In this document: one piece after another, positions 8,562 to 24,744 of the stretch
Layout: every line of letters begins with the position of its first letter
How positions within the stretch are numbered: the stretch's first letter is position 1
NCBI RefSeq assembly: GCF_904374465.1
Contig: NZ_CAJFFY010000002.1
Length of the DNA: 64,000 bases
Source of the DNA: an uncultured Subdoligranulum sp.
Lineage (GTDB): Bacteria > Bacillota > Clostridia > Oscillospirales > Ruminococcaceae
Strand: one strand, 5' to 3'
Position numbers and translations under genes: made by a program
The notes under the pieces: model-generated
Told to the model about the DNA's origin: nothing
The model's database searches: none
The model's input: only the letters and a program-made list of their open reading frames with translations

Positions 8562-9317
8562 AGCACATCCTTTCGCTTTCCTACGGAAAAGACAGTCTTG
8601 CTTGCCTGGGAGCAATTGAACAGTTGGGATGGCCGCTTGACAGCATAGTGCACGCCGAGGTATGGGCAACCGACACGATACCAGCAGACTTGCCGCCGAT
8701 GGTGGAGTTTAAGGCCAAGGCGGACAAGATCATCAAGGAGCGGTGGGGTATTGAGGTTGAGCACATCCGGCATCGGATGAACTACGAAGAAATGTTTTAC
8801 CGACCAATTTGCAGAGGACCGGCAAAGGGAACACTGAAAGGCTGGCCGCTGATAAAAGGCGGATGGTGCAGACACCTAAAAGTTACCGACAAGTTAAGCC
8901 CAAAAGGAATCGTTTCATACATTGGCATAGCCGCGGATGAGCCGAACCGTTTTCACGTTCTGTCTGAAACAAAGAGATCCCCTCTTGTAGAGGCTGGATG
9001 GGATGAACCTTACTGTCGCCAATGGTGCGAGGAAAACGATCTGCTTTCTCCAATATACACAACCGCAACCAGGGGGGGGGTGCTGGTTCTGCCATAACCA
9101 GGGAGTCGGGCAACTTCGATTGCTGAGAAGGAATTACCCGGAACTATGGGCGCTCATGCTGAAATGGGACAATGACAGCCCGGTTACATTCCATGCAGAT
9201 GGCCACACGGTGCACGACTTCGACGAACGCTTTGCACTGGAAGATCAAGGAATCGTGAGCGCAGACGAGCCGTGGAAATGGTCGTATCTGGAAGAAGTAC
9301 AGCTGAAATGGAGGTAA
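8558..9317 (+). pseudogene. PAPS-reductase-like PP-loop protein interrupted by a frameshift in a G9 tract
   Basis: N-terminal ORF 8558..9097 has the PP-loop variant SLSYGKDS. The C-terminal continuation (CWFCHNQGVGQLRLLRRNYPELW...) is in the neighbouring frame (ORF 9003..9317). The frames meet at the G run 9072-9080; eight Gs would fuse them. Confidence 0.7.
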
Positions 9318-9319
9318 CG

Positions 9320-9442
9320 ATGACAATTGTTGAAGCAATAGCAAGTGGGGTGCTATGTATTTTGCAAGGGGTTGCCTACGGAATAGTTATAGTCGCATTC
9401 TTTTTGCCGTGGGTGGCAATCTTATGGATTTTAAGAAAGTAG
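9320..9442 (+). CDS. Small membrane peptide (40 aa)
   Basis: MTIVEAIASGVLCILQGVAYGIVIVAFFLPWVAILWILRK; GGAGG upstream. Confidence 0.35.
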   Translation: MTIVEAIASGVLCILQGVAYGIVIVAFFLPWVAILWILRK

Positions 9443-9515
9443 AAAGACATATCCCGGAACCAGCAGGAAATAACGGGTAAGGACATTAGTGTCCGTAGCA
9501 GAAAGGAAAAGAAAA

Positions 9516-9902
9516 ATGAAAAATATTAAAAGAAAATGGCGTTGGTGGATGATCTGTTTCGTGATGTTTCTGATGGTCGCCTGGGTGGCATTTCTGGTGG
9601 CGACACCCCTTGTGGGAACGTTCAACACTCACACCGCCACCGTAACGGTCACGGATAAGGATCGCATTACCACCTCGACCGATAGCAAGTACATGATCTT
9701 CGGAAAAGACGAGAACGGCCAGGCCGTGGTGTATGAAAACACCGACAATATGCTGCGTGGGAAGTGGGATTCCTCAACACTGCAGGCCGAGATGGAAGTC
9801 GGCAAAACCTATGAGGTACAACTGGTGGGATTCCGCAATCCTGTTTTCAGTTGGTATGAAAACATTTTGGATGCGGAGCCGGTGGGGGTGCAAGAACAGT
9901 GA
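9516..9902 (+). CDS. N-terminally membrane-anchored hypothetical protein
   Basis: MKNIKRKWRWWMICFVMFLMVAWVAFLVA is a TM anchor; a GTG alternative start lies at 9489. Confidence 0.6.
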   Translation: MKNIKRKWRWWMICFVMFLMVAWVAFLVATPLVGTFNTHTATVTVTDKDRITTSTDSKYMIFGKDENGQAVVYENTDNMLRGKWDSSTLQAEMEVGKTYEVQLVGFRNPVFSWYENILDAEPVGVQEQ

Positions 9903-10276
9903 CCATACAAGAGGTCCAGCAGCTGGCATTTGATCTGAAACAGAATATCAACGGCTGGGGCACGATGAACAGCCAGAGAAAGAGAGCGGCAGCTGCAATC
10001 GAAAACCTGGTGGAAATGATCTGTGATCTGCGCGTGGATAACGCCGAGCTGCTGCGAACCATCATTGAAATCCAGAGAATGGATAACCCGATGAAAAATA
10101 CTGTGACATATACGATGACCTATTCCAGCGTGCTGGGGCACAGCCAGGTATGGGACATTGCATGGATGGTGTTTTTTGGGCTGATGCAGGAGGACCAGGA
10201 GCGCCGCAAAGAGATGGCGGAAGAACAGAAACGCAGGACAAGGAAACAATTTGAGAATGAAAATCGGGCTGATTGA
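9899..10276 (+). CDS. Hypothetical phage protein
   Basis: GTGA overlap with the upstream stop. Confidence 0.5.
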   Translation: MTIQEVQQLAFDLKQNINGWGTMNSQRKRAAAAIENLVEMICDLRVDNAELLRTIIEIQRMDNPMKNTVTYTMTYSSVLGHSQVWDIAWMVFFGLMQEDQERRKEMAEEQKRRTRKQFENENRAD

Positions 10277-11180
10277 CGTGGACGGGCACCGGTTCCCAAA
10301 CCTGGCGCTGATGCGAATATCCGCATACCACAAAGCGCGGGGGGATACCGTGGAATGGTGGTGGAGCGACTTTGTACATTACGACATTGTCTACATGAGC
10401 AAAATCTTTTCGGATTCTTACAGCCCGGATGTGCCGGAGCCGATCAACGCAGACAAGGTGATCAAAGGCGGCACCGGATATGCCATTTCAATGCGGGGTG
10501 GGAGAGAGGTTTTTCTGAAAGACCATGACAGGGAGCTTCCGCCGGAGATTGAAAGAATGTTCCCGGACTACAGCCTGTATCCGCAATACCCGTTCGCAGT
10601 AAGCATGACCAGCAGAGGATGCCCGCGCGGATGTGCTTTTTGTCATGTGGCGGCAAAGGAGGGGCGCTGCTCCCGCAAGGTGGCAGATGTGAAGGACTTC
10701 TGGTGTGGACAAAAAGAAATAAAAGTGCTGGACCCCAACATCACCGCCTGCCCGGAAAAGCGGGATTTGATGAACCAGTACAAAGAAACCGGCGCACTGA
10801 TCGACTTTACACAGGGCCTGGACATTCGGCTGCTGGATGTGAAAGACATTCGGGATGTCAACGATATGCGGATAAAAGAAATTCATTTCGCATGGGATAA
10901 CCCGGCGGATGATCTAAGAGAGAAGTTCTATCTGTATACAAAGCTGGCAAAACACAGACCGCACGGAAGTTTTGGAACCGTGTACATCCTGACAAACTAC
11001 CAGAGCACCATGGAAGAAAACCTCCACAGGATATACACCTTACGTGATCTTGGATATGACCCCTATGTCATGATTTATGATAAACCGAACGCGCCGAGAG
11101 AAATCCGGAGGTTACAGCGCTGGTGCAACAACCGATTTATTTTCAAAACGTGCAGGGACTTTAATAGCTACATGGGGTGA
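10257..11180 (+). CDS. Radical SAM protein with N-terminal B12-binding-like domain
   Basis: CX3CX2C motif (SRGCPRGCAFCHV) about 120 aa from the N-terminus MKIGLIDVDGHRFPNLALMRISAYHK. Confidence 0.75.
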   Translation: MKIGLIDVDGHRFPNLALMRISAYHKARGDTVEWWWSDFVHYDIVYMSKIFSDSYSPDVPEPINADKVIKGGTGYAISMRGGREVFLKDHDRELPPEIERMFPDYSLYPQYPFAVSMTSRGCPRGCAFCHVAAKEGRCSRKVADVKDFWCGQKEIKVLDPNITACPEKRDLMNQYKETGALIDFTQGLDIRLLDVKDIRDVNDMRIKEIHFAWDNPADDLREKFYLYTKLAKHRPHGSFGTVYILTNYQSTMEENLHRIYTLRDLGYDPYVMIYDKPNAPREIRRLQRWCNNRFIFKTCRDFNSYMG

Positions 11181-11195
11181 GGAGGGAAATGGAGC

Positions 11196-11552
11196 ATGAA
11201 ACCTGAAGGCGACTACGTGGCGAAATCGGAAGATGTCCAAAGCTTCTTTGCGTGGACGGGATTGAAGGTGATAACTACTTATTCGCTAGGACGATGGGTA
11301 CAGAAACGACGGCACAAGAAGAAGCGCATCAATAAAAAATGGTTGAAGCGGTTCGGGATGGTCAATGTATCAAACGGTTTCTTCACGCTTATAGACGAAA
11401 CCAATGGCGTAATGTACGTCCACCCGGACAACTGGGAAAAAATAGTTAAAGCGATGCAGGAAAGAGAAAAGCGGCTGGGCATAAGCCCGTACGAAACGGG
11501 CGGGGCTCCCGGGGGAACAACCGGAGGGAAAAGTCAATGCTGGATGAAGTGA
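11196..11552 (+). CDS. Hypothetical basic phage protein
   Basis: GAGGAGGG RBS; contains KRRHKKKRINKKW. Confidence 0.55.
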   Translation: MKPEGDYVAKSEDVQSFFAWTGLKVITTYSLGRWVQKRRHKKKRINKKWLKRFGMVNVSNGFFTLIDETNGVMYVHPDNWEKIVKAMQEREKRLGISPYETGGAPGGTTGGKSQCWMK

Positions 11553-12376
11553 ACGAAACAATCATGTACCTGGATATGTGTGATCTGGACCAGATCGCAG
11601 AAAGCGGACAATGCTTCCGCTGGATGCCGTGCCGTGAAGGAGGATACCTCGTGCACGATGGCGCAGACCAGGCGTACATAAAGCAGATCGGGACTGTACT
11701 GGTGGTGCGGTACGCGGGCAACACGTTGGCCAAGTGGTTCCGATACCTGGATGCCGGAACGGATTACAGGCACATCCTGGAAAGCATTCCCGACGACGAC
11801 AAGTATCTGCGCGCCGCTGCTGATCGGGGGTGCGGGCTGCGGATTCTCAGAGCGGACCTGTGGGAAACCATGGTTTCTTTCATCATTTCCCAGAACAACA
11901 ACATCCCCCGTATCAAAGCGAGCATCTATGCGCTGTGCCGCAAGCTGGGGAAGCCCCGGCGGTCATTGTTGGGAGAAGTGGGAAAAGACCTGGGGAAAGA
12001 TTTCTATTTCACATTCCCCACCCCGGCGGATATGGCCGATCTGGATGCGCTGCAGGGGCTGGGACTGGGGTACCGGGATAAGTACCTGGCCGAACTGGCG
12101 CGGGATGTAATGCTGGGACGATTCCGGCCGGACAAGCTGCAGGATATGTCCACCGATGAGGCCCACCGTTATCTGAAAAGCGTGCGGGGAATCGGGGACA
12201 AGGTGGCCAACTGCATTTTGCTGTTTGGCCTGGGTCGGCATGATGCGTTCCCGGTGGACACCTGGATGAAGAAGATCATCGACCGGGAGTACGGCGGGAA
12301 GTTCCCACTGGAACGATACAGCGGAACTGCAGGAGTAATTCAGCAGTATATGTTTTACGCAGAAAGGACTCGGTGA
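11537..12376 (+). CDS. HhH-GPD DNA glycosylase, 8-oxoguanine glycosylase (Ogg)-like
   Basis: SGQCFRW N-terminal motif; LWETMVSFIISQNNNIPRI; HhH segment LKSVRGIGDKVANCILLFG followed by AFPVDTW (catalytic Asp region). Confidence 0.75.
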   Translation: MLDEVNETIMYLDMCDLDQIAESGQCFRWMPCREGGYLVHDGADQAYIKQIGTVLVVRYAGNTLAKWFRYLDAGTDYRHILESIPDDDKYLRAAADRGCGLRILRADLWETMVSFIISQNNNIPRIKASIYALCRKLGKPRRSLLGEVGKDLGKDFYFTFPTPADMADLDALQGLGLGYRDKYLAELARDVMLGRFRPDKLQDMSTDEAHRYLKSVRGIGDKVANCILLFGLGRHDAFPVDTWMKKIIDREYGGKFPLERYSGTAGVIQQYMFYAERTR

Positions 12377-16395: not shown

Positions 16396-17415
16396 TTATT
16401 CAAGGCCCAACGCTCGGCGGGCGGCGCGCTCGGCGTTGTCTGTCAACTGCCGTTGCCATGCGTTGTTACGGGGCGACCAGCGGAAACCGTTGGATTTGAG
16501 GGCGGAGCGGGTGGCCTCGTCGGGCTTGCCGTCGAAAATGATTTGCAGACGGTTTTGCTCGGCGTTGCGAACGATCTGAAAGCCGTCATGCTCCTCGGCC
16601 GGCACCGGGGTGGACTGTTGAGCTTGCAGCCTGTCCAGTTCTTCAATGCGGGCCTGTACTCGCTTGATCTTGCCGCGTAGGCTGGCAAGCTCAAAATCAG
16701 GCATGGGGCGCTGCGCAAAGGCCGGGGCGCTGGCAATGGCCGCATCGTTGCGGGCGGCGGCTTCGTCGCTCATGCCGGGAAAGCCGCGGAGGGTCTTGTG
16801 CTTACGATACCAGGCATTCATGGCTTTGCCTTCGTCAAGCTGGTGTTGCAGGCGGTGGAGTTGGTCGCCCAGCATTTCGCGTGCGTAGGGGTCGGTCAGA
16901 TCGACGGGGCCCGTGCCAACGCTCTTGATTTTGTACAGAATGGCCTCGATGTCCTTGTACTCGGCCCACAGGCTGTCCTCGCGGGCGTTTTGCCGGGCCT
17001 TTTTGCGTACTGGGAAATTACCGGCACCGCACACCAAAACGCTGGGGCAGCTCGCCCCGTTGCGGTTGTAGTCGTTTGTCCACTGGGCCAGGCGGCGGGC
17101 GTACCGGTCCAGCAGCGTGTCCAGCTTGTTGTGGTAGTAAGGGCTGGTGGCTGCTTTGCGACGCTCGACCAAAGCAGAAGCCTTGTCAACGGCAGCCCGA
17201 TATTCGGCGGTAGCACTGCCGGCCTCATAATCAGACATCGACATCATATCGTGTGCCCGGCGGGCGGTGTTTTCGTCGATGGGGTAATAGAATCCCCCAG
17301 CCGCTTTTTGGGGCGAAGCCTCGGCGGGCTGCTCGGTTATCGGCTGGGCGACCGGCTTGTTGTCTGCGCCCGGGGCGGCTGCGATGTCATCAAAAAGGCT
17401 CATTTGTTCGCGCAT
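16396..17415 (-). CDS. DUF3560-like protein typical of conjugative elements
   Basis: C-terminal QIIFDGKPDEATRSALKSNGFRWSPRNNAWQRQL pattern; AAGGAGG RBS. Confidence 0.55.
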   Translation of the reverse strand: MREQMSLFDDIAAAPGADNKPVAQPITEQPAEASPQKAAGGFYYPIDENTARRAHDMMSMSDYEAGSATAEYRAAVDKASALVERRKAATSPYYHNKLDTLLDRYARRLAQWTNDYNRNGASCPSVLVCGAGNFPVRKKARQNAREDSLWAEYKDIEAILYKIKSVGTGPVDLTDPYAREMLGDQLHRLQHQLDEGKAMNAWYRKHKTLRGFPGMSDEAAARNDAAIASAPAFAQRPMPDFELASLRGKIKRVQARIEELDRLQAQQSTPVPAEEHDGFQIVRNAEQNRLQIIFDGKPDEATRSALKSNGFRWSPRNNAWQRQLTDNAERAARRALGLE

Positions 17416-17444
17416 GGTGTTTCCTCCTTGCTGTGTGGTGTGGC

Positions 17445-17606
17445 TTACAGGTTGAGAAGCAGACGGGCCTTGTCGTCGTCAACGAAGTTTGACCATCCGG
17501 CCTCGTGAAGCTCCTCGGCGGCCTGGTGGAGCGTAAGCACGCCGGATTTCACATCGTCGCGCAAGCTCTCTAAAATGCCCTTGATTGGGAGCGGGTCTTT
17601 GCACAT
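17445..17606 (-). CDS. Hypothetical small protein (53 aa)
   Basis: Internal start MCKDPLPIKG of track ORF 17445..17771, after AAAGGA. Confidence 0.45.
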   Translation of the reverse strand: MCKDPLPIKGILESLRDDVKSGVLTLHQAAEELHEAGWSNFVDDDKARLLLNL

Positions 17607-17639
17607 GGTATCAGATCCTTTCTGTGTTTTGGGTTGTGG

Positions 17640-17730
17640 CCCATGAGCGCCCCGCCTTGATGGAGCGGGGCCGGCCTTGTGGGCTGGGGTCGGGTCGCTT
17701 TGTTTCCGGCGCGGCCCGCGAAGGTGTCCG
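17640..17730 (-). repeat. Composite intergenic repeat: family-B-like hairpin fused to family A copy 2
   Basis: CCCATGAGCGCCCCGCCTTGATGGAGCGGGGCCGGCCTTGTGG followed by the family A unit. Confidence 0.85.
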
Positions 17731-17748
17731 GCGGATTGTGGTGCAGGG

Positions 17749-17907
17749 TCAAAGCATGGCCCAGTAAACATTCAGGGCCTTTTGTATCCAGTGCAGGGGA
17801 GCCATGCGCTGTTCCAGGTCTTGCGCAATCTTGCGGACATCCTCGGCGGTTTTGGCAGCACCCAGTGCGGCGTCAACGGCAGATTCGTTCTCGTAATAAG
17901 TCACCAT
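17749..17907 (-). CDS. Hypothetical small protein (52 aa)
   Basis: GAAAGGAGAAC RBS; MVTYYENESAVDAALGAAKTAEDVRKIAQDLEQRMAPLHWIQKALNVYWAML. Confidence 0.5.
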   Translation of the reverse strand: MVTYYENESAVDAALGAAKTAEDVRKIAQDLEQRMAPLHWIQKALNVYWAML

Positions 17908-17952
17908 GAAAAGTTCTCCTTTCTAAGCTGCTTTGTTATGTAGATTCGGCCC

Positions 17953-18009
17953 TCCTTGTGGGCTGGGGTCGGGTCGCTTTGTTTCCGGTGCGGCCCGCGA
18001 AGGTGTCCG
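17953..18009 (-). repeat. Intergenic repeat family A, copy 3
   Basis: CCTTGTGGGCTGGGGTCGGG...GAAGGTGTCCG, ending 5 nt from the stop of the upstream gene. Confidence 0.9.
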
Positions 18010-18014
18010 ATATA

Positions 18015-18578
18015 TTATAATTTCCAGTTTTTTGTGGCGGGGAGTTGGTCGCCGTCGGGAAATGCTGCGCCGTGAAATGTGCCGTTATGATCGACACCCT
18101 CCCAGCGGTCGAGATACAAAAGGGCTTTGTCGTTGGCCTCTTGTTCGGTGAGGCGGTAAACACGAGTCAGCTTGAGCCATCCACCGGGCCATGCGTAGGT
18201 TTGACCCTTGCGGGCGGTTTGCTTAGTAAGGGACGGCAATTTGTCAAGCATCCGCTGGCGTGCGGCGCGGTATTCTGCTGTTGCCTTGTTCTGTGCGATG
18301 GCAGCAGAGAGGCGGAAGATCAAGCCAGGGTCGTCTGTGACAAGCCGGAAGGCATGGGAGAAGGTGAGAAAGTTCCCGAAAATGATTGTGCATCCGGCGT
18401 ATTTGGCGGCCGCTTCATCGGATAGCCATTCCGGAGACGGGTTGACGAAATTCCCGTAAAGCTCAAAAACGGGGTCGAGGGTGTAGCATTCCAGATCGTG
18501 CAGAATGTTTTCCTCGGTGTCAGAGATAAAAGACCACGGCGCGGCGGGATTGGTGACGTGATTTAGATATTCTGTCAT
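18015..18578 (-). CDS. Hypothetical protein (187 aa)
   Basis: Start MTEYLNHV after GGAGG; the rest of track ORF 18015..18734 is 5' UTR. Confidence 0.6.
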   Translation of the reverse strand: MTEYLNHVTNPAAPWSFISDTEENILHDLECYTLDPVFELYGNFVNPSPEWLSDEAAAKYAGCTIIFGNFLTFSHAFRLVTDDPGLIFRLSAAIAQNKATAEYRAARQRMLDKLPSLTKQTARKGQTYAWPGGWLKLTRVYRLTEQEANDKALLYLDRWEGVDHNGTFHGAAFPDGDQLPATKNWKL

Positions 18579-18613
18579 GGTGAAAACCTCCGGTTTATGT
18601 TTTGGGGCTGTAA

Positions 18614-18697
18614 CCCTTGAGCGCCCGCCCCGGTGTGGAGCGGCTGGGCTTGCACCAGCGGCGGCGGCTGCCGTCGGCCTTGCGGGCGTTGTTATGC
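18614..18697 (-). repeat. Intergenic repeat family B, copy 2
   Basis: 84 nt, aligns end to end with 19698-19780; includes the last Ala codon and TAA of the upstream gene. Confidence 0.85.
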
Positions 18698-19642
18698 GCA
18701 GCGGATGTAGTAGGCGGAGCGCTTGGCGGACCATTTGCCGCCAGCCTTTTCAATGGCGGCTTTGTTGTGCTCCACGTCACCGGACAGCCAAACGATGGGG
18801 ATGCTTGTCTGGGCGCCCTTGATCGTGGCGGTGATACCAGCCAGCGCGGAAAACTTCTTGGCCAGGTCCTGGGCGGCCGCGGCCGGGGAACTGTTCGACT
18901 TGGCCGAACAGTTGGCGGCGGGCTTGGCCTGCTGCTCGGCAGCTACCCGGGCGGCGTGTTCGTCCTGCAACTGACGGCGAAGCCGGCGCGCGTCCTCTTC
19001 CAGCTGGGCCTGCTCCTGTTGTGCGGCGTTGAGCGCGGCGCGCAGGTTTTTGACTTCCTGGCTCTCAACTACTTCGGGGGCGTCTGAAAACCAGGCGCGG
19101 ACGGCCCGAAGATGGGCGGCGCAGCGGGGAGAATCGGCATTGAAGTTGATCGGAAGCACAAACCCGACAGGGGACTTCTCGAAAATCGCCAGTGCGCCGG
19201 CGGTTTTGTGCGCGGAAATGAAGATACAATCGCTGAAAACGCTTGTGTATTCCTGGTCATAGGATTCCAGACCGTCGCCGTTGGGGTTGTGGTAGAACTC
19301 TACAAGACGGCGGGCACCCTTGTCCTGCAACACCAAGGGGCAAGGCTCCAAAATGCCGCCGTTGGTGTTCTCGCTGACGATGCGGGAAAACAGCGCGGCA
19401 ATGTCCAGCGGCTTGCAGTCTTGTTCATCGCCGTTGCGATAAAAATAATCCGATGGGGCGCGGTGTGTGACGGGGGAGACGTGGTTGTTGTACTGCTCTG
19501 CCGTGAGGATAACGGCCAGATGGTCAGTGGCGGCATAAATAACGCCGCTTTTGACGTTCACGGCCAGCTTCCCGTGTTTGAACGACGCACGGAAAACTTT
19601 CGTGAGGGACGCGGTAAAGGGCTGGGGAATGATTTTTTTCAT
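18692..19642 (-). CDS. Hypothetical protein with coiled-coil and conserved C-terminal module
   Basis: Start MKKIIPQPF after CAGGAGG; C-terminal WLSGDVEHNKAAIEKAGGKWSAKRSAYYIR. Confidence 0.6.
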   Translation of the reverse strand: MKKIIPQPFTASLTKVFRASFKHGKLAVNVKSGVIYAATDHLAVILTAEQYNNHVSPVTHRAPSDYFYRNGDEQDCKPLDIAALFSRIVSENTNGGILEPCPLVLQDKGARRLVEFYHNPNGDGLESYDQEYTSVFSDCIFISAHKTAGALAIFEKSPVGFVLPINFNADSPRCAAHLRAVRAWFSDAPEVVESQEVKNLRAALNAAQQEQAQLEEDARRLRRQLQDEHAARVAAEQQAKPAANCSAKSNSSPAAAAQDLAKKFSALAGITATIKGAQTSIPIVWLSGDVEHNKAAIEKAGGKWSAKRSAYYIRCA

Positions 19643-19670
19643 GTGGGGTGCCTCCTGTTGTGTTGTTGTG

Positions 19671-19690
19671 CCCGGCGGGGTGTTGCCGGG
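19671..19690 (-). repeat. Leader hairpin family C, copy 1
   Basis: CCCGGCGGGGTGTTGCCGGG, just 5' (gene sense) of the RBS of CDS 18692..19642. Confidence 0.8.
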
Positions 19691-19697
19691 ATGGTTA

Positions 19698-19780
19698 CCC
19701 ATGAGCACCCGCCCCGTTGTGGGGCGGCCGGGCTTGCACCGGCGGCGCGTTGTGCGTCGGCCTTGCGGGTGTTGTTATGC
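19698..19780 (-). repeat. Intergenic repeat family B, copy 3
   Basis: 83 nt; contains the CCGCCCC-GTTGT-GGGGCGG hairpin. Confidence 0.85.
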
Positions 19781-20452
19781 CAGGACGTTGGAGGCCAGGG
19801 TGGCAAAATCGAGCTGCTGAGGAACCGCCAGAATCACGCCGGTTTCGGTGGTGTTGTCGTTCAGGTCCTTGTGCGCGGTCTGGGCAATGACAACCGGCGC
19901 GGACTGCTGTGCAGCTGCTGCCCGGCGGGCCTTGCGCTGCGCGGCCAATTGGGCGTTATAGGCCCGGATTTCCTCGGCGGTTTTGACGTGGACGGCCGGC
20001 CGCTCTGCGGGAACCTCTACCTGGTCACGGTGGAACAGGTAGGACAGCTTCTTGTAGTAATGCGGGTCGTTGGGGTGATCGTCAACCAGTTTCTGCTCGG
20101 CGGCTGAAACGGCCTTGACCGCCTTGGCTTCGGCCATTGCCTTGCGCTGGGCAACGCTGGGCTTGTCGGTGAAGCGCCAGAGGGGGACGGCCAGGGCAGC
20201 TTTCTCGCCGCGCTTGACCTGCAGGCCCTGCTGCTTCCACTCGTTGTAGGTGTGGAACATGCCGGCAACACTCATTGCCTCGGCAATCTGCAGGGGGTCA
20301 GCGGTGTTGCCGTTCTTGTCCGGCTTAACCTGGATGTGAGCGGCCATGCTGGCCAGCTGCTCAGCGCTGTGATGGGCGGCCGCCATGGTGTGAATCTGCT
20401 CAGGGGAAAATGCGGTTTTGATGGCTTCCAGAATAATCTCGTTATTGGTCAT
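19775..20452 (-). CDS. ArdC N-terminal-domain-like ssDNA-binding (antirestriction-type) protein
   Basis: FHTYNEWKQQGLQVKRGEKAALAVPLWRF resembles the ArdC-N/DUF1738 signature; CAGGAGG RBS. Confidence 0.6.
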   Translation of the reverse strand: MTNNEIILEAIKTAFSPEQIHTMAAAHHSAEQLASMAAHIQVKPDKNGNTADPLQIAEAMSVAGMFHTYNEWKQQGLQVKRGEKAALAVPLWRFTDKPSVAQRKAMAEAKAVKAVSAAEQKLVDDHPNDPHYYKKLSYLFHRDQVEVPAERPAVHVKTAEEIRAYNAQLAAQRKARRAAAAQQSAPVVIAQTAHKDLNDNTTETGVILAVPQQLDFATLASNVLA

Positions 20453-20488: not shown

Positions 20489-20508
20489 CCCGGCGGGGTG
20501 ATGCCGGG
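20489..20508 (-). repeat. Leader hairpin family C, copy 2
   Basis: CCCGGCGGGGTGATGCCGGG, in the same position relative to the RBS of CDS 19775..20452. Confidence 0.8.
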
Positions 20509-20657
20509 CGGTGGTGGCGGGCTGCTTTAGGGTGCAGCCTGCGAGAGTGTCCCGGGTGCGGTAGTGTGTCCCGCCGGCCCTTGGCTCTTGGCTGCCAGGT
20601 TAGCCCCGAACCATCGGCCCCGGTTCGGTAGGTGCTTGCGTGTCGCTTGCTGTGCTT

Positions 20658-20775
20658 GCATGGTACCACGCCAAAAGCGCAGATGTCAAGCATGGCACCA
20701 TGTTTTCTACGGATTGCACAAACAGCATGGCGCCACGCCGGGAAAAAGTTGTGCGAACTGCGCATGGAACCACGC
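20658..20775. promoter_or_regulatory. Array of four operator-like near-palindromes, GCATGG-NN-CCAYG
   Basis: Copies at 20658-20671, 20690-20702, 20725-20738 and 20762-20775 (spacing 32, 35, 37 bp), followed by TATAAT at 20781-20786, upstream of the RHH gene. Confidence 0.6.
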
Positions 20776-20814: not shown

Positions 20815-21000
20815 ATGGCAATATCAGAGAAAAAAGCTATATCAGACAAGAGGCATCTGGAAAAACTGGACAAAATCAAAATCCAGCCGTACAAGGCCGA
20901 GGGGCAGCAGATCAGAGAGGCCGCCCAGGCTGCCGGGCAAAGCCTGCAAGGATATATTTTGCAGGCTATCCGGGAGAGGATGAACAGAGAAAAGCAATAA
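20815..21000 (+). CDS. Ribbon-helix-helix (CopG/Arc-like) DNA-binding protein
   Basis: 61 aa, with SLQGYILQAIRERM typical of RHH helix 2; GGGGGT RBS. Confidence 0.55.
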   Translation: MAISEKKAISDKRHLEKLDKIKIQPYKAEGQQIREAAQAAGQSLQGYILQAIRERMNREKQ

Positions 21001-21004
21001 AGCA

Positions 21005-21047
21005 AAAGCCGCGCGGTTCAAAAACCACGCGGCTTTTTATTTTTTTA
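21005..21047 (+). terminator. Rho-independent terminator
   Basis: AAAGCCGCGCGG / CCACGCGGCTTT stem followed by TTATTTTTTT. Confidence 0.8.
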
Positions 21048-21050
21048 TAT

Positions 21051-21278
21051 CACACACCCGCATATACGCACACCCACATACCCGCATACCCGCATACGCA
21101 CATACCCGCATACGCACACACCCGCATACGCACACACCCGCACAGGCCCACACACCCGCACAGGCCCACACACCCGCACAGGCCCACACACCCGCACAGG
21201 CCCACACACCCGCACAGGCCCACACACCCGCACAGGCCCACACACCCACACACAGGCCTACACACCCACACACAGGCC
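21051..21278. repeat. C/A-rich tandem repeat: six perfect 18-mers plus degenerate flanks
   Basis: CACACACCCGCACAGGCC x6 at 21131-21238, two 20-nt variants at 21239-21278, and degenerate CGCATAC(C/G)C units at 21051-21130. All three minus-strand frames are open only because of composition. Confidence 0.95.
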
Positions 21279-21299
21279 CGCGCACTCGCACAAGCCGAG

Positions 21300-21440
21300 G
21301 GCAAAAATATAATAACGCGCGATTCCAACGCACGCGCGCAATTCCAACACGCACGCGCGTGCGATCACGCGCGTGCCAGGCGCACACGCGCGGGCGCGCA
21401 TAGGTACTGTGCGCGTATGCGCGCGCAGTGCGGGTTCGGA
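21300..21440. promoter_or_regulatory. CG-alternating palindrome cluster (candidate cos / terminase recognition region)
   Basis: CACGCGCGTG palindrome at 21352-21361 and 21366-21375. The 9-bp inverted repeat GCGCGCATA (21394-21402) / TATGCGCGC (21416-21424) has a 13-bp spacer. Direct repeat ATTCCAAC..GCACGCGCG x2. Confidence 0.35.
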
Positions 21441-21579
21441 AGCGCAAAAGTTTCGCAGGTATCAACATTTTTTTAGGGCTTCCCCCGCCCGGACCGAAAA
21501 AACAAGGCCGGGGTCAAAAAAGCGAATGATGATAGTTTATGATAGTTTTTTTATGATATATTGATATAAAGAAAGCTGC

Positions 21580-21614
21580 AAAGCCCGAAGGCGAAAACGC
21601 CTGCGGGCTTTTTC
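21580..21614 (+). terminator. Strong intrinsic terminator immediately upstream of the packaging operon
   Basis: AAAGCCCGAAGGCG-AAAA-CGCCTGCGGGCTTT (13 of 14 pairs) followed by TTTC; ends 20 nt before ATG 21634. Confidence 0.75.
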
Positions 21615-21633
21615 TATGCACGGAGGGGGAAAG

Positions 21634-22383
21634 ATGGCGCGGCGGAGTGAAAAAAGAGATGCCGCCAAGGCCAAGTATTGCGCCCGAAGGGCAAATGGGG
21701 AACACGTTGTCCTAAAGGATTTCGCTGCGGAACTGGGCGTAAGCTATGATCTGGTGCGCAAGTGGAAGGCGGAAGATAAATGGGAAGCGGCGGTTCCACG
21801 CAAGAGGGGCGGACAGCCTGGAAATAAAAACAGCCAGGGAAAGAAAAACGCTAAAGGGAATACCGGCGGCGCACCGAAGGGAAATAAAAACGCGGAAAAA
21901 GATGGAGCTTATAGCACCATCTTTTTTGATTTCCTGAGCGAAAGCGAAAAAAAGCTGATTGAAAGCACGCCCAAAGATGGTGTGGAAGTTTTGGAGCATG
22001 AACTGCAGGTACTGAAATTACGAGAGAAAAAAATCCTGGACAAGATTTCCAAATACGAAGAAATGGACAGGGAGAATCAGGACACGTTGCTGCTGACCAG
22101 CCTAATGGATATGCGTGGACCGAAAAAAGAACAGGATGGCGCGGTGCAAAATCTGGGTATGTACACAAAGGAAACCCCGTTTGCCAGAATCTTGAAACTG
22201 CAGGAAGCTCTATACAAAGTACAGGGGAGAATAGCCACCGTAGCCAATGCACTGCGGCAGGCCAAGGAAAACCAGGAACGCATGGACCTGGAAATCAAAA
22301 AACTGGAACTCATGCGGATGCGCGCCCTAGGAGCGGTTGAGGTAGACGACGATGACACTATTCACGAGCAAGAGGATAGCTGA
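21634..22383 (+). CDS. Terminase small-subunit-like HTH protein (YjcR-type)
   Basis: Start MARRSEK after GGAGGGGG. N-terminal HTH (LKDFAAELGVSYDLVRKWK), a Gly/Asn/Lys-rich linker and a coiled-coil C-terminus. Confidence 0.6.
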   Translation: MARRSEKRDAAKAKYCARRANGEHVVLKDFAAELGVSYDLVRKWKAEDKWEAAVPRKRGGQPGNKNSQGKKNAKGNTGGAPKGNKNAEKDGAYSTIFFDFLSESEKKLIESTPKDGVEVLEHELQVLKLREKKILDKISKYEEMDRENQDTLLLTSLMDMRGPKKEQDGAVQNLGMYTKETPFARILKLQEALYKVQGRIATVANALRQAKENQERMDLEIKKLELMRMRALGAVEVDDDDTIHEQEDS

Positions 22384-22825
22384 ATACCTGGATGTTACCG
22401 AACGCCGGGTACGCCAGCTGCGAGATGAAGAAGTCATACGGGAAAACCGGCCGGGACTTTACGAACCCATGGATACCATGAAGCGATACATCCGTTACCT
22501 GCACAGCAACGGAAACGGACTGAACGATGAACGGGCCAAACTGCTGGGAGTCAAGAGGGAGAAGGCAGAAATTGAGCTGGAAGAGATCAAAGGCGGACTG
22601 CATCGGACCGAAGATATTGAGCGGGCGCTGAGCACCATGTTGATGAACTTCCGCACGAGGATAACGGCGATTCCTGCGAAGCTGGCAGGGGACCTTGCGA
22701 AAATGGACAATCAGATGGATGTTTTCGACAGGCTAAAGCAAGAAACGGACGAAGCCTTGGATGAATTGAGCAACTACGATACGGCGTTTGCTGCCGAGGA
22801 GCGTGGCGATGAAACAGAAGAATAA
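22352..22825 (+). CDS. Nu1-like terminase small subunit
   Basis: N-terminal winged HTH (TSKRIAEYLDVTERRVRQLRDEEVI) and acidic C-terminus, directly upstream of the GpA-type large subunit. Confidence 0.65.
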   Translation: MTLFTSKRIAEYLDVTERRVRQLRDEEVIRENRPGLYEPMDTMKRYIRYLHSNGNGLNDERAKLLGVKREKAEIELEEIKGGLHRTEDIERALSTMLMNFRTRITAIPAKLAGDLAKMDNQMDVFDRLKQETDEALDELSNYDTAFAAEERGDETEE

Positions 22826-22908
22826 TTGCCGGGGTTGCGTATGGGGAAAACAGATCAATCAGAAAATTGTTTTGTGCCCGTTCGGAAATTGCGTCCGGGG
22901 AAAAGACA

Positions 22909-24744
22909 ATGAAAAGGAAAACCATAGACCTACCACGAAACACAGCCGACCTCCTGGCAAAGATCGTCGCCAAACTTAGACCGCCACCGAATTTGACGCT
23001 GAGCCAGTTTGCTGATAAGCACAGAAGGCTAAGCCAAGGAACAAGCGCCATGCCAGGCCGGTGGAAAACCGACCGGGCACCATACCAGCGCGAGATCATG
23101 GACGCCATCAGCGACAACCATGTGCGCAAAGTTGTCGTCATGAGTGCGGCACAGATCGGTAAAACGGACGCGCTGGTGCTGAATCCGCTGGCCTACTACA
23201 TGAAATACGCGCCGGCACCCATCATGGTGATGGAGCCAAGTATTGACATGGGGCAGGGGTTCAGCAAAGAGAGACTGACACCGATGCTGCACGATACCCC
23301 CTGCCTGCGCGGTCTGGTGGATGACAAAAGCCGCATGAGCGGAAACACTATCTTACAGAAGAAATTTCCCGGCGGATTGGTGGTTATTGTTGGAGCAAAT
23401 TCGCCGGCAGGGCTGGCAAGCCGCCCCATCAAAGTTCTACTGGCGGACGAGATCGACCGATACCCGCCAAGCGCCGGAAAAGAAGGAGACCCGTTGAGCC
23501 TGGCTGCCAAGCGGCAAACCACCTACTGGGACCGCAAAGAAGTATACATAAGCACGCCCACCATACGGGGGCAGAGCCGCATCGAAGTGGAGTTTGAGCA
23601 CAGCACACAGGAAGAATTCTATGTGCCGTGCCCGAATTGCGGGCACTACCAGCCGCTAGTGTGGGCCAATCTGGTATACGACAAGCCAAAACCCGGAGAC
23701 ATCCACTATGTATGCGAAAAGTGCGGCACAGCGGATGTGGAATACAGATGGAAAGCACAGGAGATCAAAGGCAAGTGGGTAGCCAAAAAGCCAGAAGAAA
23801 AGGCCAGAGGTTTCCACTTGAACACGCTGGCCAGCACGCTTTGCAGCTGGGAACAAGTGGTGGAAAAATTCAAAAAGGCAAAGCAGCAACTGGACATTGG
23901 CGACCCGGAGTTGATGAAAACCTGGGTAAACACCGAGATGGGGGAAACCTGGGAAGAACGCGGAAAGACAGTGGAAAGCGACAGCCTGCTGGCACGCCGG
24001 GAACTGTACGAAGCTGAGGTGCCGGACGGTGTCCAGGTGCTTACTGCAGGAATTGATACACAGGATGACCGTTTTGAAATTGAGGTTGTGGGATGGGGCG
24101 CCGGAAAAGAAAGCTGGGGCATCCGTTACCAAAAAATCTATGGAAACCTTCAGGAGGAAACCATCTGGAATGATCTGGACGAGTTCTTGAAACGAACCTG
24201 GAAAAAGAAAGACGGAACGGCGATGCACCTGCTGGCAACCTGCATGGACAGCGGCGGACACTACCCGGACCAAGTGCTACGGTTTTGCGCTGCGCGCTGG
24301 GCGCGGCGCATTTTTGCCATCAAGGGACGCGGTGGCGCGGCGGTGCCCTTTATTTCCAACCCGACTAAAAACAACCGCGTGAAAGCGCCGCAGTTTACCC
24401 TGGGCGTTGATACAGGGAAGGTTTTGCTGTATGAACGGCTGAACGTAAAAGAACAGGGACCAAACTACTGCCACTTCCCGATCAATGAGGACAGAGGTTA
24501 TGACGAAAAGTATTTCCAGGGTCTAACGGCAGAAAAAATGGTGCTGCGGTACAAAAAGGGCCGGGCAACATTCAGCTGGGAGCTGAAAGAGGGAATCAAA
24601 CGAAACGAACCGCTGGACATCCGAAACTATGCCGGGGCTGCACTGGAAATCGCAAACCCGCCCCTGACACCGGAAGAAGCAGAACAAAAGTCGGTAGCGC
24701 AGGCAAAACCGCGCGGCCGCAGACAACTGAGCGGAGGAATCTAA
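22909..24744 (+). CDS. Terminase large subunit, lambda GpA family
   Basis: LSQFADKHRRLSQGTSAMPGRWKTDRAPYQREIMD and SAAQIGKTD (Walker A-like) are typical of GpA; start MKRKTIDLPRN. Confidence 0.9.
   Translation: MKRKTIDLPRNTADLLAKIVAKLRPPPNLTLSQFADKHRRLSQGTSAMPGRWKTDRAPYQREIMDAISDNHVRKVVVMSAAQIGKTDALVLNPLAYYMKYAPAPIMVMEPSIDMGQGFSKERLTPMLHDTPCLRGLVDDKSRMSGNTILQKKFPGGLVVIVGANSPAGLASRPIKVLLADEIDRYPPSAGKEGDPLSLAAKRQTTYWDRKEVYISTPTIRGQSRIEVEFEHSTQEEFYVPCPNCGHYQPLVWANLVYDKPKPGDIHYVCEKCGTADVEYRWKAQEIKGKWVAKKPEEKARGFHLNTLASTLCSWEQVVEKFKKAKQQLDIGDPELMKTWVNTEMGETWEERGKTVESDSLLARRELYEAEVPDGVQVLTAGIDTQDDRFEIEVVGWGAGKESWGIRYQKIYGNLQEETIWNDLDEFLKRTWKKKDGTAMHLLATCMDSGGHYPDQVLRFCAARWARRIFAIKGRGGAAVPFISNPTKNNRVKAPQFTLGVDTGKVLLYERLNVKEQGPNYCHFPINEDRGYDEKYFQGLTAEKMVLRYKKGRATFSWELKEGIKRNEPLDIRNYAGAALEIANPPLTPEEAEQKSVAQAKPRGRRQLSGGI

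What the first reader, a model, noticed from the sequence alone, without database searches (positions are those of the whole stretch)
21051..21278. C/A-rich tandem repeat whose complement is a run of canonical G-quadruplex motifs, just upstream of the packaging genes
The 18-mer CACACACCCGCACAGGCC is repeated perfectly six times (21131-21238). It is flanked by two 20-nt variants and 80 bp of degenerate CGCATAC(C/G)C units. The + strand here has almost no T. On the minus strand the array reads GGG-TGTGT-GGG-CCTGTGC-GGG-TGTGT-GGG, that is G3 tracts with 5/7/5-nt loops. This gives at least 12 consecutive G3 tracts able to form several G-quadruplexes, with i-motif potential on the C-rich strand. 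The array lies in a 570-bp noncoding gap between the early/regulatory region and the terminase genes. Possible roles are a small-terminase binding array (cosB/pac-like), a replication or transcription barrier separating early and late units, or a hypervariable recombination-prone locus.
Basis: seen in the sequence. Interest (0 to 1): 0.65.

Follow-up and report, generated by a model that had tools for sequence, protein, structure and literature searches.

The report
Variable repeat beside phage cos site
The C/A-rich 18-base repeat is real, but it is one copy-variable version of a thymine-poor, non-coding stretch that a whole family of gut-bacterial phages carries just inside the last-packaged end of their DNA, so its G-quadruplex potential looks incidental.

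Summary
CACACACCCGCACAGGCC occurs six times perfectly (21131-21238), inside a degenerate array (21051-21296) with about 4% T.

The minus strand matches the classical G4 pattern. G4Hunter is sub-threshold (about -0.9), and most relatives lack such motifs.

The array lies in a prophage with a lambda gpA-type large terminase. It sits 136-381 bp upstream of a conserved lambda-like cos module: GGTACTG, a variable spacer, then CGGGTTCGGAAGCGCAAAA.

The cos cut is placed at 21432|21433. Support comes from contigs of near-identical phages that start exactly at 21433, and from the PhageTerm-mapped start of Faecalibacterium phage Lelie.

So the array lies at the right, last-packaged end, on the opposite side of cosN from where cosB lies in lambda.

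In 24 of 25 non-redundant related lineages, a tract of at least 130 nt with at most 10.5% T on the terS strand (median 354 nt, 5.8% T) abuts cos. It is usually tandemly repetitive. Units and copy numbers differ even between close relatives.

The conserved property is one-strand T depletion, not G-tracts or a shared unit.

Best reading: a composition-constrained, slippage-prone upstream arm of cos. Its function is inferred, most likely in packaging or handling of the free right end.

The parts
20815..21000 (+). 61-aa ribbon-helix-helix-like gene, the last gene before the right end
   Evidence: ORF. phrog_13890 E=3.5e-6 and weak NikA-like Pfam hit. Syntenic homologues in L117 and L121.
21004..21037 (.). 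Bidirectional intrinsic-terminator hairpin (A-run, 15-bp stem, T-run) that closes the RHH gene
   Evidence: Terminator scan and inverted repeat I1. Conserved in L117.
21051..21130 (+). Older, degenerate part of the array (8/16-nt units of the CGCATACC / CACACACCCGCATACG type). Its first ~65 nt are shared with the closest relative.
   Evidence: TRF period 8/16-18. Alignment with L117 is near-identical up to about window 21113.
21131..21238 (+). Six perfect copies of CACACACCCGCACAGGCC, a lineage-specific recent expansion
   Evidence: Exact matches. Absent from L117/L118 and L121. No hit for the dimer junction in JGI metagenome contigs. Logan contigs of three runs break 14-30 nt into it.
21239..21296 (+). 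Two 20-nt variants (CACACACCCACACACAGGCC, TACACACCCACACACAGGCC) and a decaying tail
21051..21400 (+). Whole T-depleted tract (5.7% T), the feature that is conserved across the phage family
   Evidence: Equivalent tracts in 24 of 25 lineages.
21312..21391 (+). Direct repeats ATTCCAAC(A)CGCACGCGCG (2-3 copies) with CGCGCG-type palindromes. They are the local version of the family's (A)AATCYAAACGCGCCCGCGCG repeats and are candidate protein-binding sites.
   Evidence: Family D2 and pairs I12, I17-I19. Homologous repeats in L044, L046, L050, L055, L057, L061, L065.
21403..21409 (+). GGTACTG, a cosQ-like heptamer that starts 30 nt before the nick
   Evidence: Conserved as (A/T)AGGT(A/T)CTG in all aligned lineages. 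L025 has GGGTCCTG. Lambda has GGGTCCT at the same 30-nt distance.
21410..21430 (+). 21-nt spacer of constant length (21-22 nt) but free sequence
   Evidence: Ungapped comparison of 20 lineages.
21431..21449 (+). cos core CGGGTTCGGAAGCGCAAAA, with the top-strand nick between 21432 and 21433 (start of the virion's left end)
   Evidence: Core found in 29 IMG/VR loci and 40 metagenome loci. Contigs L119 and L120 (TerS 99% identical) and an X8 contig begin exactly at 21433. L122 and the Lelie record begin at the homologous base.
21450..21521 (+). Conserved blocks on the terS side of the nick (CAGGTAT 21456-21462, T7 21468-21474, CTTCC...CGAAAAAA, GGGGTCAAAAAA 21510-21521), in the position of I2/cosB
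   Evidence: Column conservation.
21529..21611 (+). ATGATAGTTT x2 plus a promoter-like site, then hairpin 21580-21611 with a T-run directly before terS
   Evidence: A promoter-like box followed by a hairpin is present before terS in all relatives read.
21634..22383 (+). TerS-like protein 1 (PF10668 HTH). The likely start is ATG 21634 behind GGAGGGGG.
   Evidence: Pfam 2e-10, phrog_1889 4e-54. The 249-aa cluster representative P0001 starts at MARRSEK.
22352..22825 (+). TerS-like protein 2 (N-terminal HTH plus coiled coil)
   Evidence: phrog_57 4e-31. Sequence.
22867..24744 (+). Large terminase of the lambda gpA type
   Evidence: GpA_ATPase 5e-80, GpA_nuclease 7e-90. 31% identity to lambda gpA over 91% of its length.

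Best explanation
What it is (shown). The array is the locally expanded part of a non-coding, hypervariable tract that is T-depleted on one strand. The tract forms the upstream (cosQ-side) arm of a lambda-type cos site. In virion DNA it occupies roughly bases 136-381 counted back from the right, last-packaged end. The six perfect 18-mers arose by recent replication slippage or unequal exchange within an older C/A-rich repeat, after this lineage split from its nearest sequenced relative.

What is conserved (shown). Across the phage family, neither the unit, the period, the copy number nor the G-tracts are kept. What is kept is that the terS-sense strand, whose 3' end lies at the right terminus, carries almost no T for 130-600 bp right up to cosQ. 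That tract includes conserved T-free repeats and a few embedded GATC sites.

How it most likely works (inferred). It is a polar, cis-acting extension of cos, read by a machine that tracks one strand toward the end. I think the most likely candidate is the translocating terminase as it approaches cosQ/cosN to terminate packaging. Under this reading the tract would supply a signal-free and promoter-, ORF- and hairpin-poor run-in, possibly with methylation-sensitive GATC sites as at the P1 pac site.

Because only composition and polarity are constrained, slippage is free to remodel it. That gives VNTR-like arrays, some of which (as here) happen to spell G4 motifs.

Split of confidence: identity and position about 0.85; packaging-related function about 0.35.
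For: The repeat and the T depletion are real.

The terminase is of the lambda gpA type, with a lambda-family portal.

A conserved cos module with the geometry of lambda cosQ-cosN is present in 20 aligned lineages (lambda sequence; cos subsites in PMC4669245).

The cut position has four kinds of support:
- The phage Lelie record, rearranged by PhageTerm to start at a cos with 5' overhangs, starts at the homologous base.
- Contigs L119 and L120 (TerS 99% identical) start at 21433.
- An X8 Logan contig spans exactly 21433-21583.
- L122 starts at the homologous base, while L121 of the same lineage reads through.

Family-wide tract: 24 of 25 lineages, median 354 nt and 5.8% T, tandem periods from 6 to 153 nt, unrelated units.

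T depletion occurs without tandem structure in the L046 lineage (9 T in 270 nt, P about 1e-14).

Within that lineage, positions -300 to +100 around the core show the fewest variable columns (6-11 per 50 nt against 29-47 in the flanks).

Hypervariability between close relatives is seen.

GATC is enriched in the tracts: 62 observed against 13.3 +/- 3.6 expected, in 23 of 24 lineages.
Against: No experiment or read-level data bear on function.

No sequence-dependent slowing of a terminase on T-poor DNA is known to me, and lambda itself has no such tract (32-42% T in its last 200 nt).

Two AT-rich family members (L005, and partly L021) lack a clear tract.

The overhang length and the exact right terminus were not determined.

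The low variability in the L046 cluster could reflect recent common descent rather than selection.

The window's array has no GATC. The only GATC in its tract is at 21363.
Confidence: 0.5

Rival explanations
1. G-quadruplex / i-motif element. The G-rich minus strand folds into tandem G4s (and the plus strand into i-motifs) when unwound. That structure would be the selected function, as a barrier or a packaging signal, in the way proposed for herpesvirus pac1.
For: 10 overlapping G3N1-7 motifs, the only such minus-strand cluster in 64 kb. The nearest relatives L117 and L121, and also L026, L098 and L007, have minus-strand motifs too. Herpesvirus pac1 signals are reported to contain a conserved G4 motif (cited in PMC13595911).
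Against: G4Hunter averages -0.84/-0.91, and only 2 windows reach 1.2. The loops are C-rich, and hairpins are about isoenergetic in a G4-aware DNA fold. 25 of 34 related tracts have no loop<=7 motif; L046, L061, L073 and L093 are G-rich on the opposite strand; L003, L005 and L021 have almost no C-tracts. C-rich tandem repeats give CCC tracts as a by-product.
Confidence: 0.08
2. Rho-utilisation site. The plus-strand transcript is C-rich, G-poor, untranslatable and unstructured, so Rho loads on read-through RNA from the RHH gene. This backs up the intrinsic terminator and keeps transcription out of cos and the late operon.
For: The array is 52% C and 14% G over about 250 nt. It has no start or stop codons on the plus strand and lies directly after a plus-strand gene and its terminator. 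C exceeds G in 18 of 25 lineages.
Against: G is below 20% in only 6 of 25 lineages, and several tracts have G at or above C. Rho binding does not need U depletion, which is the conserved trait. In L006-type phages no plus-strand gene precedes the tract. Presence of Rho in the host was not tested. No RNA coverage was seen.
Confidence: 0.12
3. End-handling element for the host helicase-nuclease (AddAB/RecBCD type) and RecA. After terminase cuts cos, or after injection, the free right end is attacked. The T-free strand is the 3'-ending strand that such enzymes scan, so the tract would act as a Chi-like or recombination-promoting zone.
For: The position and strand are exactly those at which lambdoid phages lacking a recombination module cluster active-orientation Chi sites (PMC12315714). 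This prophage carries a polar octamer, CCCGGCGG, 22 times on that strand and never on the other, denser toward the right end. L006-type arrays are made of CCCGGCAG, one mismatch away. No recombinase was recognised among the early genes scanned.
Against: The window's array and tract contain no CCCGGCGG, and the exact octamer is not among the k-mers enriched in tracts. It is not known that CCCGGCGG is a Chi site. No motif is shared by all tracts.
Confidence: 0.13
4. Sequence-specific protein-binding array. The 18-mers would be iterated sites for TerS (cosB/pac-like), for the adjacent RHH protein (operator or centromere-like), or iterons of an origin.
For: The copies are regularly spaced and identical, and sit next to an RHH gene and two TerS-like genes. 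RHH proteins and small terminases are known to bind repeat arrays (general knowledge).
Against: The array is on the wrong side of cosN for cosB. L117 has TerS2 with a near-identical N-terminal HTH and TerL 96.7% identical, yet a different array. L121 has the same RHH beta-strand (LDKIKIQPYK) and an unrelated array. Periods in the family (6 to 153 nt) show no common register. The conserved, better candidate sites are the ATTCCAAC...CGCGCG repeats at 21312-21391.
Confidence: 0.07
5. No function. The tract is a neutral spacer prone to slippage, and its T depletion comes from a strand-specific mutation bias near the DNA end.
For: The sequence turns over extremely fast and copy number varies. The perfect copies imply recent, unselected expansion.
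Against: T depletion persists in non-repetitive tracts and in 24 of 25 lineages with a fixed polarity. The T that remains is concentrated in GATC. The commonest single-strand damage, C deamination, would add T to an exposed strand rather than remove it (inference).
Confidence: 0.1

Closest known systems
Bacteriophage lambda cos (cosQ-cosN-cosB) with gpA/Nu1 terminase
   Same: The large terminase is homologous to gpA (31% identity over 91% of its length), and the portal is of the lambda family. The site lies directly upstream of the small-terminase genes. The right end finishes ...CG and the left end begins GG.... A conserved heptamer (GGTACTG here, GGGTCCT in lambda and in L025) starts 30 nt before the nick. 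Conserved blocks with a T/A-run lie on the terS side.
   Different: Lambda has no T-depleted or repetitive arm upstream of cosQ (32-42% T in its last 200 nt). This family has two TerS-like proteins and extra conserved T-free repeats upstream of the cosQ-like heptamer. The overhang length here is not known.
Faecalibacterium phages Lelie and FP_Toutatis (Toutatisvirus)
   Same: They belong to the same cos family (TerS 44%, TerL 62% identical). Lelie is inducible, and PhageTerm calls a cos with 5' overhangs (PMC11792537). Its last ~650 bp are non-coding, C-rich and T-poor, and differ from Toutatis except next to cos.
   Different: Their tract (about 10% T) consists of CCGATGAYC-type modules, not 18-mers. 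The papers read here do not describe the tract or the cos motifs.
Chi sites clustered at the right end of lambdoid phages without a recombination module (LLS, MD8)
   Same: A strand-specific sequence feature on the strand with its 3' end at the right terminus, concentrated near that end (PMC12315714). This prophage also has a fully polar octamer with that orientation and gradient.
   Different: The array itself does not contain that octamer. There is no evidence that the octamer is a Chi site. Chi clusters are dispersed through genes, not a contiguous non-coding tract.
Herpesvirus pac1 / 'a' sequence repeats and the P1 pac site
   Same: Both are packaging signals flanked by G/C-rich reiterations with G4 motifs (herpesviruses), or carry clustered GATC sites whose methylation controls cleavage (P1; from memory).
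   Different: There is no homology. In the present family G4 motifs are not conserved. The GATC sites are scattered, and only one lies in the window's tract.
Bacterial VNTR / minisatellite loci
   Same: Perfect head-to-tail copies, copy-number differences between near-identical genomes and assembly breaks.
   Different: Here the locus has a fixed position and polarity relative to a functional site, and a composition constraint shared by unrelated units.

Membership tests
Canonical G-quadruplex-forming sequence | At least four G3+ tracts with loops of 1-7 nt on one strand | tested here: met
   10 overlapping matches on the minus strand at 21137-21247.
Canonical G-quadruplex-forming sequence | G4Hunter score of at least 1.2 (a common predictor threshold) | tested here: not met
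   Mean -0.84 for the array and -0.91 for the perfect part. Only 2 of the 25-nt windows reach 1.2. A G4-aware fold does not prefer G4.
Canonical G-quadruplex-forming sequence | Folding shown in vitro or in vivo | not testable with these tools
   Needs CD, melting or chemical probing.
Canonical G-quadruplex-forming sequence | Motif conserved at the homologous position in relatives, if it is functional | tested here: not met
   9 of 34 tracts have any loop<=7 motif. The close relatives L117 and L121 do; most others do not.
Lambda-type cos region (the locus as a whole) | gpA-type large terminase encoded next to the site | tested here: met
   PF05876 and PF20454. 31% identity to lambda gpA.
Lambda-type cos region (the locus as a whole) | Defined virion DNA termini at the site | tested here: met
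   Lelie PhageTerm start. Contigs L119, L120, L122 and an X8 contig start at the same base. This is indirect for this exact phage, and the overhang length is unknown.
Lambda-type cos region (the locus as a whole) | cosQ-like element upstream and binding region downstream of the nick | tested here: inconclusive
   The positions and the conservation fit. No binding or genetic data exist.
cosB / pac-like small-terminase binding array (the repeat itself) | Lies between the cut site and the terminase genes | tested here: not met
   The array ends 136 bp upstream of the nick, on the opposite side (lambda layout).
cosB / pac-like small-terminase binding array (the repeat itself) | Repeat sequence co-varies with the TerS DNA-binding domain | tested here: not met
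   Near-identical TerS2 HTH in the window and L117, but different arrays.
Rho-utilisation (rut) site | At least ~80 nt of C-rich, G-poor, untranslated RNA downstream of a gene on the same strand | tested here: met
   C 52%, G 14%, about 250 nt, no plus-strand ORF, after the RHH gene.
Rho-utilisation (rut) site | Property conserved in relatives; Rho present and termination observed | tested here: inconclusive
   C exceeds G in 18 of 25 lineages, but G is below 20% in only 6 of 25. Rho and 3' ends were not tested.
Iteron origin / RHH-bound centromere or operator | Repeats kept in phages that share the binding protein's DNA-reading residues | tested here: not met
   L121 has the same RHH beta-strand but an unrelated array.
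Right-end Chi cluster | Contains the genome's polar, over-represented motif in the active orientation | tested here: not met
   CCCGGCGG (27 plus, 0 minus in the window) is absent from 21051-21400. The rest of the prophage does meet the feature.
VNTR / minisatellite | Tandem near-identical units with copy-number or unit differences between close relatives | tested here: met
   Six perfect copies. The array is replaced by other repeats in L117. The sister lineage has 4.6-16 copies. Copy number of this exact 18-mer in other samples could not be read, because assemblies break.

The most novel reading that the evidence does not exclude
The T-free, hypervariable arm upstream of cos is a new kind of strand-specific cis element of cos-packaging phages of gut Clostridia. 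It would be a composition-coded 'terminal leader' needed either for terminase to stop and cut at the end of a genome, or for survival and recombination of the free or first-injected right end. It might work together with GATC methylation and with the fully polar octamer CCCGGCGG, which would then be the first candidate Chi-like signal for this bacterial group.
Probability: 0.3. Interest if true: 0.75.

Novelty: new variant of a known kind. Interest (0 to 1): 0.55.

Why it matters
If the tract is functional, it extends the textbook cos site (about 200 bp in lambda) by several hundred base pairs. The code would be base composition on one strand rather than sequence. That would be a new handle on how terminases terminate packaging, or on how phage ends are protected in Gram-positive anaerobes.

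There are practical gains whatever the function turns out to be:
- The work gives a recognisable cos signature, GGT(A/T)CTG-N21/22-CGGGTTCGGAAGCGC, with the nick after the second base of the core. It can be used to orient and terminate genomes of a widespread family of gut phages (Faecalibacterium, Angelakisella, Ruminococcaceae and Lachnospiraceae MAGs; chicken and human gut).
- It explains why their assemblies break here.
- It warns that G4-motif hits in such repeats are probably by-products.

Tried and rejected
- Flank 21280-22300 in runs X1-X4: nothing laid. Later calls gave contig boundaries only, so copy number in other samples and the right-end overhang could not be read.
- Exact-protein look-up of the 255-aa ORF: none found, because the true start is probably 21634.
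- Scan of JGI metagenome contigs for the 18-mer junction: 0 hits. In IMG/VR the single 18-mer hit is a chance match inside a gene.
- Rfam: only sub-threshold hits overlapping the terminator.
- Minus-strand ORF 21037-21468 (143 aa) spanning the array: no Pfam or PHROG family. It crosses the cos cut, and array periods in relatives are mostly not multiples of 3. Rejected as a gene.
- A universal motif in the tracts: none found. CAGCAG, GGCAGCA, CCGGCAG and GCAGGCC recur in about half of the lineages only.
- The array as a Chi cluster, as an RHH operator or as cosB: rejected on the tests listed under membership.
- A cytosine-deamination origin of the bias: rejected on direction (inference).
- Literature searches for a prior description of the tract or of CCCGGCGG: nothing relevant.
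Full report
**1.

The 18-mer CACACACCCGCACAGGCC starts at 21131, 21149, 21167, 21185, 21203 and 21221 and occurs nowhere else in the window. It is followed by two 20-nt variants (21239-21278). It is preceded by 80 nt of degenerate 8/16-nt units.

The plus strand of 21051-21278 is 52% C, 30% A, 14% G and 3.9% T. It holds 21 CCC tracts.

On the minus strand the classical pattern G3+N1-7 x4 matches ten times in overlap (21137-21247). These are the only minus-strand matches in the 64 kb.

The wider segment 21051-21400 is the most extreme single-base-depleted stretch of the window: 20 T in 350 nt, P about 3e-13.

**2. Context**

The window holds a prophage, roughly 4-49.4 kb, bounded by tRNA genes.

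Directly downstream of the gap lie:
- two small-terminase-like genes (PF10668/phrog_1889, and phrog_57);
- a large terminase with the GpA_ATPase and GpA_nuclease domains;
- a lambda-family portal.

The large terminase is 31% identical to lambda gpA over 91% of its length.

Upstream lies a 61-aa ribbon-helix-helix-like gene (20815-21000), closed by a bidirectional hairpin terminator at 21004-21037.

Public runs that hold this sequence are mostly chicken-gut metagenomes. Protein relatives sit in MAGs labelled Angelakisella, Ruminococcaceae, Lachnospiraceae and Eubacteriales.

**3. A conserved cos module lies just downstream of the array**

Relatives found through TerS share the block CGGGTTCGGAAGCGCAAAA (window 21431-21449). 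A search for the block found 29 IMG/VR loci. A search for GGTACTG-N21/22-CGGGTTCGGRAGCGC found 40 metagenome loci.

An ungapped comparison of 20 lineages shows this order:
- (A/T)AGGT(A/T)CTG;
- a 21-22-nt spacer of free sequence;
- the core;
- T/A-runs and TAGGTA;
- CTTCC...GAAAAA;
- GGGGGGTCAAAAA;
- a promoter-like box and a hairpin in front of terS.

The geometry matches lambda. Lambda's right end finishes ...GGGTCCTTTCCGGTGATCCGACAGGTTACG and its left end begins GGGCGGCGACCT. Here GGTACTG starts 30 nt before the inferred nick, exactly as GGGTCCT does in lambda. One family member (L025) even has GGGTCCTG. That GGGTCCT is lambda's cosQ is from my memory of the Feiss laboratory's work. The subsite order cosQ-cosN-cosB and their roles are in PMC4669245.

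**4. The cut position is anchored by data**

Faecalibacterium phage Lelie (TerS 44% identical) was induced and typed by PhageTerm as cos with 5' overhangs. Its record was rearranged to start at cos (PMC11792537). The record starts GGTCCGAAAGCCCGAAAA... and ends ...GTAGGTACTGGGAGCGGCGTTTCAATCCTTTACG. The cut therefore falls after the second base of the family core.

For the window's own lineage:
- Two contigs carrying a 99%-identical TerS begin exactly at GGTTCGGAAG, which is window 21433. L119 is a SPAdes assembly and L120 a Logan assembly, possibly of the same sample.
- A Logan contig of the unrelated run X8 spans exactly 21433-21583.
- In a 75%-identical lineage, contig L122 starts at the homologous base, while L121 reads through.

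A break caused by strain variation would be expected to include the conserved CG in front. The coincidence at one base across samples and lineages argues for physical ends.

Hence the array lies 136-381 bp inside the right end of the virion DNA. By analogy with lambda (general knowledge) this end is the last packaged. The array is on the opposite side of cosN from where cosB lies in lambda.

**5. The array is one instance of a family trait**

After clustering, 25 non-redundant lineages have at least 250 nt of sequence upstream of the core. In 24 of them a tract of at least 130 nt with at most 10.5% T (19 of them at most 7%) abuts the cos module on the terS strand. Median length is 354 nt and median T content 5.8%.

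Most tracts contain tandem repeats, but with unrelated units and periods of 6, 10, 13, 18, 19, 24, 26, 27, 39, 95, 101, 110, 111 and 153 nt. Examples:
- CGGCAGCATCCCGCAGCC, at least 6 copies (L049);
- CCCAGGCCACAAG, about 10 copies (L050);
- CAGCCCGGCAGCAGGCCGC (L006);
- CACCCACACCCCA (L026).

The L046 lineage has a T-poor tract that is not tandemly repetitive: 9 T in 270 nt, P about 1e-14. So the depletion is not merely inherited from a T-free seed.

G content of the tracts ranges from about 0.09 to 0.43. C exceeds G in 18 of 25 lineages, and G is below 20% in 6 of 25.

Lambda has no such tract. The AT-rich members L005 and, partly, L021 are exceptions.

**6. The tract is hypervariable between relatives but constrained within a lineage**

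L117/L118 are the closest relatives read: TerL 96.7%, TerS1 87% and TerS2 84% identical. They share the terminator and the first ~65 nt of the array. They then carry (CACACACC)x4 and (CGCACACT)x3 instead of the 18-mers. So the six perfect copies are a recent, lineage-specific expansion.

L121 (75% lineage) has a CCCTAGCCCCAGGC-type array.

In the L006-type lineage the 19-mer array has 4.6, about 7.8, 9.7 and about 16 copies.

Among 15 distinct sequences of the L046 cluster, positions -300 to +100 around the core have the fewest variable columns (6-11 per 50 nt against 29-47 in the flanks). This suggests constraint, although recent common descent is not excluded.

Logan contigs of three runs stop 14-30 nt into the perfect repeats. 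This explains assembly breaks and prevented a copy-number survey for this exact array.

**7. The G4 reading**

The pattern is met, but G4Hunter averages -0.84 (array) and -0.91 (perfect part), with only two 25-nt windows reaching 1.2.

With DNA parameters and G4 energies switched on, ViennaRNA keeps hairpins for the six-unit strand. For the whole array it gains only 2.2 kcal/mol from G4s.

Only 9 of 34 related tracts have any loop<=7 motif on the corresponding strand, though the nearest relatives do.

G4 formation in single-stranded DNA cannot be excluded. It is not what the family conserves.

**8. Tests of the other readings**

*Binding array for TerS or RHH.* The array is on the wrong side of the nick. 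Phages with a near-identical TerS2 helix-turn-helix (L117) or an identical RHH beta-strand (L121) carry different arrays. The conserved ATTCCAAC(A)CGCACGCGCG repeats at 21312-21391, homologous to AAATCYAAACGCGCCCGCGCG in relatives, are better candidates for binding sites.

*Rho site.* The window's array has textbook composition, but the family does not share low G, and U depletion is not a Rho requirement.

*Chi-like end protection.* The place and strand match the right-end, top-strand Chi clusters of lambdoid phages without recombination genes (PMC12315714). The prophage has a fully polar octamer (see section 10). But the array lacks that octamer, and no motif is common to all tracts.

*Coding.* The minus-strand ORF has no family and crosses the cut. 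Periods in relatives are mostly not multiples of three.

**9. Most likely mechanism (inferred)**

The constraint is on one strand, has a fixed polarity toward the terminus, runs without interruption into the cosQ-like element, and includes conserved T-free repeats. I therefore read the tract as an upstream arm of cos that is sensed by a strand-tracking machine.

The translocating terminase approaching its termination site is my first choice, at about 0.35. In lambda, termination depends on cosQ/cosN/I2 recognition by the moving enzyme.

The enrichment of GATC among the few remaining T's recalls the methylation-controlled P1 pac site (from memory). The figures are 62 observed against 13.3 +/- 3.6 expected, in 23 of 24 lineages, often as AGATCA.

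If only composition and polarity matter, slippage can freely create and remodel arrays. That would produce the VNTR behaviour and occasional G4-looking units.

The alternatives, with my estimates, are:
- handling of the free right end by AddAB/RecA, 0.13;
- a Rho site, 0.12;
- neutrality with a mutation bias, 0.10;
- G4, 0.08;
- specific binding, 0.07.

None of these is tested experimentally.

**10. Things seen in passing**

- CCCGGCGG occurs 27 times on the plus strand and never on the minus strand of the window. This includes the host flanks and the inside of minus-strand genes. It is the most over-represented 8-mer of the prophage (22 against 1.4 expected) and is denser toward the right end.
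- Several relatives show the same polarity, 9-12 to 0. The motif has equal G and C, so base skew cannot explain this.
- The early region has an OGG/HhH-GPD glycosylase-like gene, a radical-SAM gene, a PAPS-reductase-like gene and an HD-domain gene. This may be a DNA-modification module.
- An ArdC-N-like anti-restriction gene lies next to the right end.

**11. Verdict**

The feature is real and non-random. The G4 and cosB interpretations are not what the comparative evidence supports.

The locus is a lambda-type cos region with an unusual, family-wide, T-depleted hypervariable upstream arm. It is a new variant of a known kind, of moderate interest. Experiments in an inducible relative are clear and feasible.

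Noticed in passing
whole window; plus-strand sites include 3623, 4623, 5261, 7277, 8151, 10901, 11955, 12022, 13665, 13923, 17256, 19671, 19921, 20489, 23368 ... 57879: The octamer CCCGGCGG occurs 27 times on the plus strand and 0 times on the minus strand. This holds in host flanks and inside minus-strand genes too. It is the most over-represented 8-mer of the prophage (22 against 1.4 expected) and is denser in the right third of the virion map. Relatives show the same polarity (L071 11/0, L106 12/0, L102 11/0, L078 10/0). It is a candidate Chi- or KOPS-like polar motif for this bacterial group.
   Followed up: partly
T-poor tracts of related loci (e.g. L046, L062, L071, L003); window 21363: GATC is about 4.7-fold enriched among the rare T's of the tracts: 62 observed against 13.3 +/- 3.6 expected, in 23 of 24 lineages. 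It often appears as AGATCA or CAGCAGATC. Possibly methylation sites or a protein site.
   Followed up: partly
window 7992-12376: A cluster of an HD-domain gene (7992-8561), a PAPS-reductase-like gene (8558-9097), a radical-SAM gene (10251-11180) and an OGG_N/HhH-GPD glycosylase-like gene (11537-12376). This is unusual for a prophage and may be a DNA base-modification or repair module. If guanines were modified, G4 folding could be affected.
   Followed up: no
window 16396-20452 (minus strand): A leftward-transcribed module next to the right end. It includes a primase-like gene (phrog_19458, E=1.6e-126) and an ArdC-N-like / anti-restriction-like gene (19775-20452). If the right end is ejected first, as in lambda (not shown for this phage), these genes would be among the first to enter the cell.
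   Followed up: no
window 20655-20775: Four copies of a CATGG-NN-CCACGC-like motif between a minus-strand promoter-like site (20689-20660) and the RHH gene. It looks like an operator. L006-type phages have a different 34-nt repeat at the same place.
   Followed up: no
window 20505-20554 (minus strand): A sub-threshold Rfam match to RAGATH-5 (39.1 bits, gathering score 50, E=2.7e-4).
   Followed up: no
window 21529-21611, and the equivalent regions of L001, L003, L005, L007, L021, L117, L121: A promoter-like box with short direct repeats, followed by a strong hairpin plus T-run immediately before terS, is conserved across the family. This suggests late-operon control by antitermination or attenuation.
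   Followed up: no
L003 about 3900-4000; L005 about 3900-4000; L025 about 2900-3000: Some relatives carry an extra 200-400 nt between that hairpin and terS, with tRNA-T-arm-like GGTTCRAnTCC sequences. This may be a small RNA gene.
   Followed up: no
window 21616 versus 21634: The mechanical ORF for TerS1 starts at 21616 (MHGGGK...). The database cluster representative and the GGAGGGGG site point instead to ATG 21634 (MARRSEK...).
   Followed up: partly
L024 (Ruminococcaceae MAG), about 1330-1480: A TerS homologue with the ATTCCAA...CGCGCG repeats and the promoter-like box, but without the cos core. It may be a degraded prophage or a satellite-like element.
   Followed up: no
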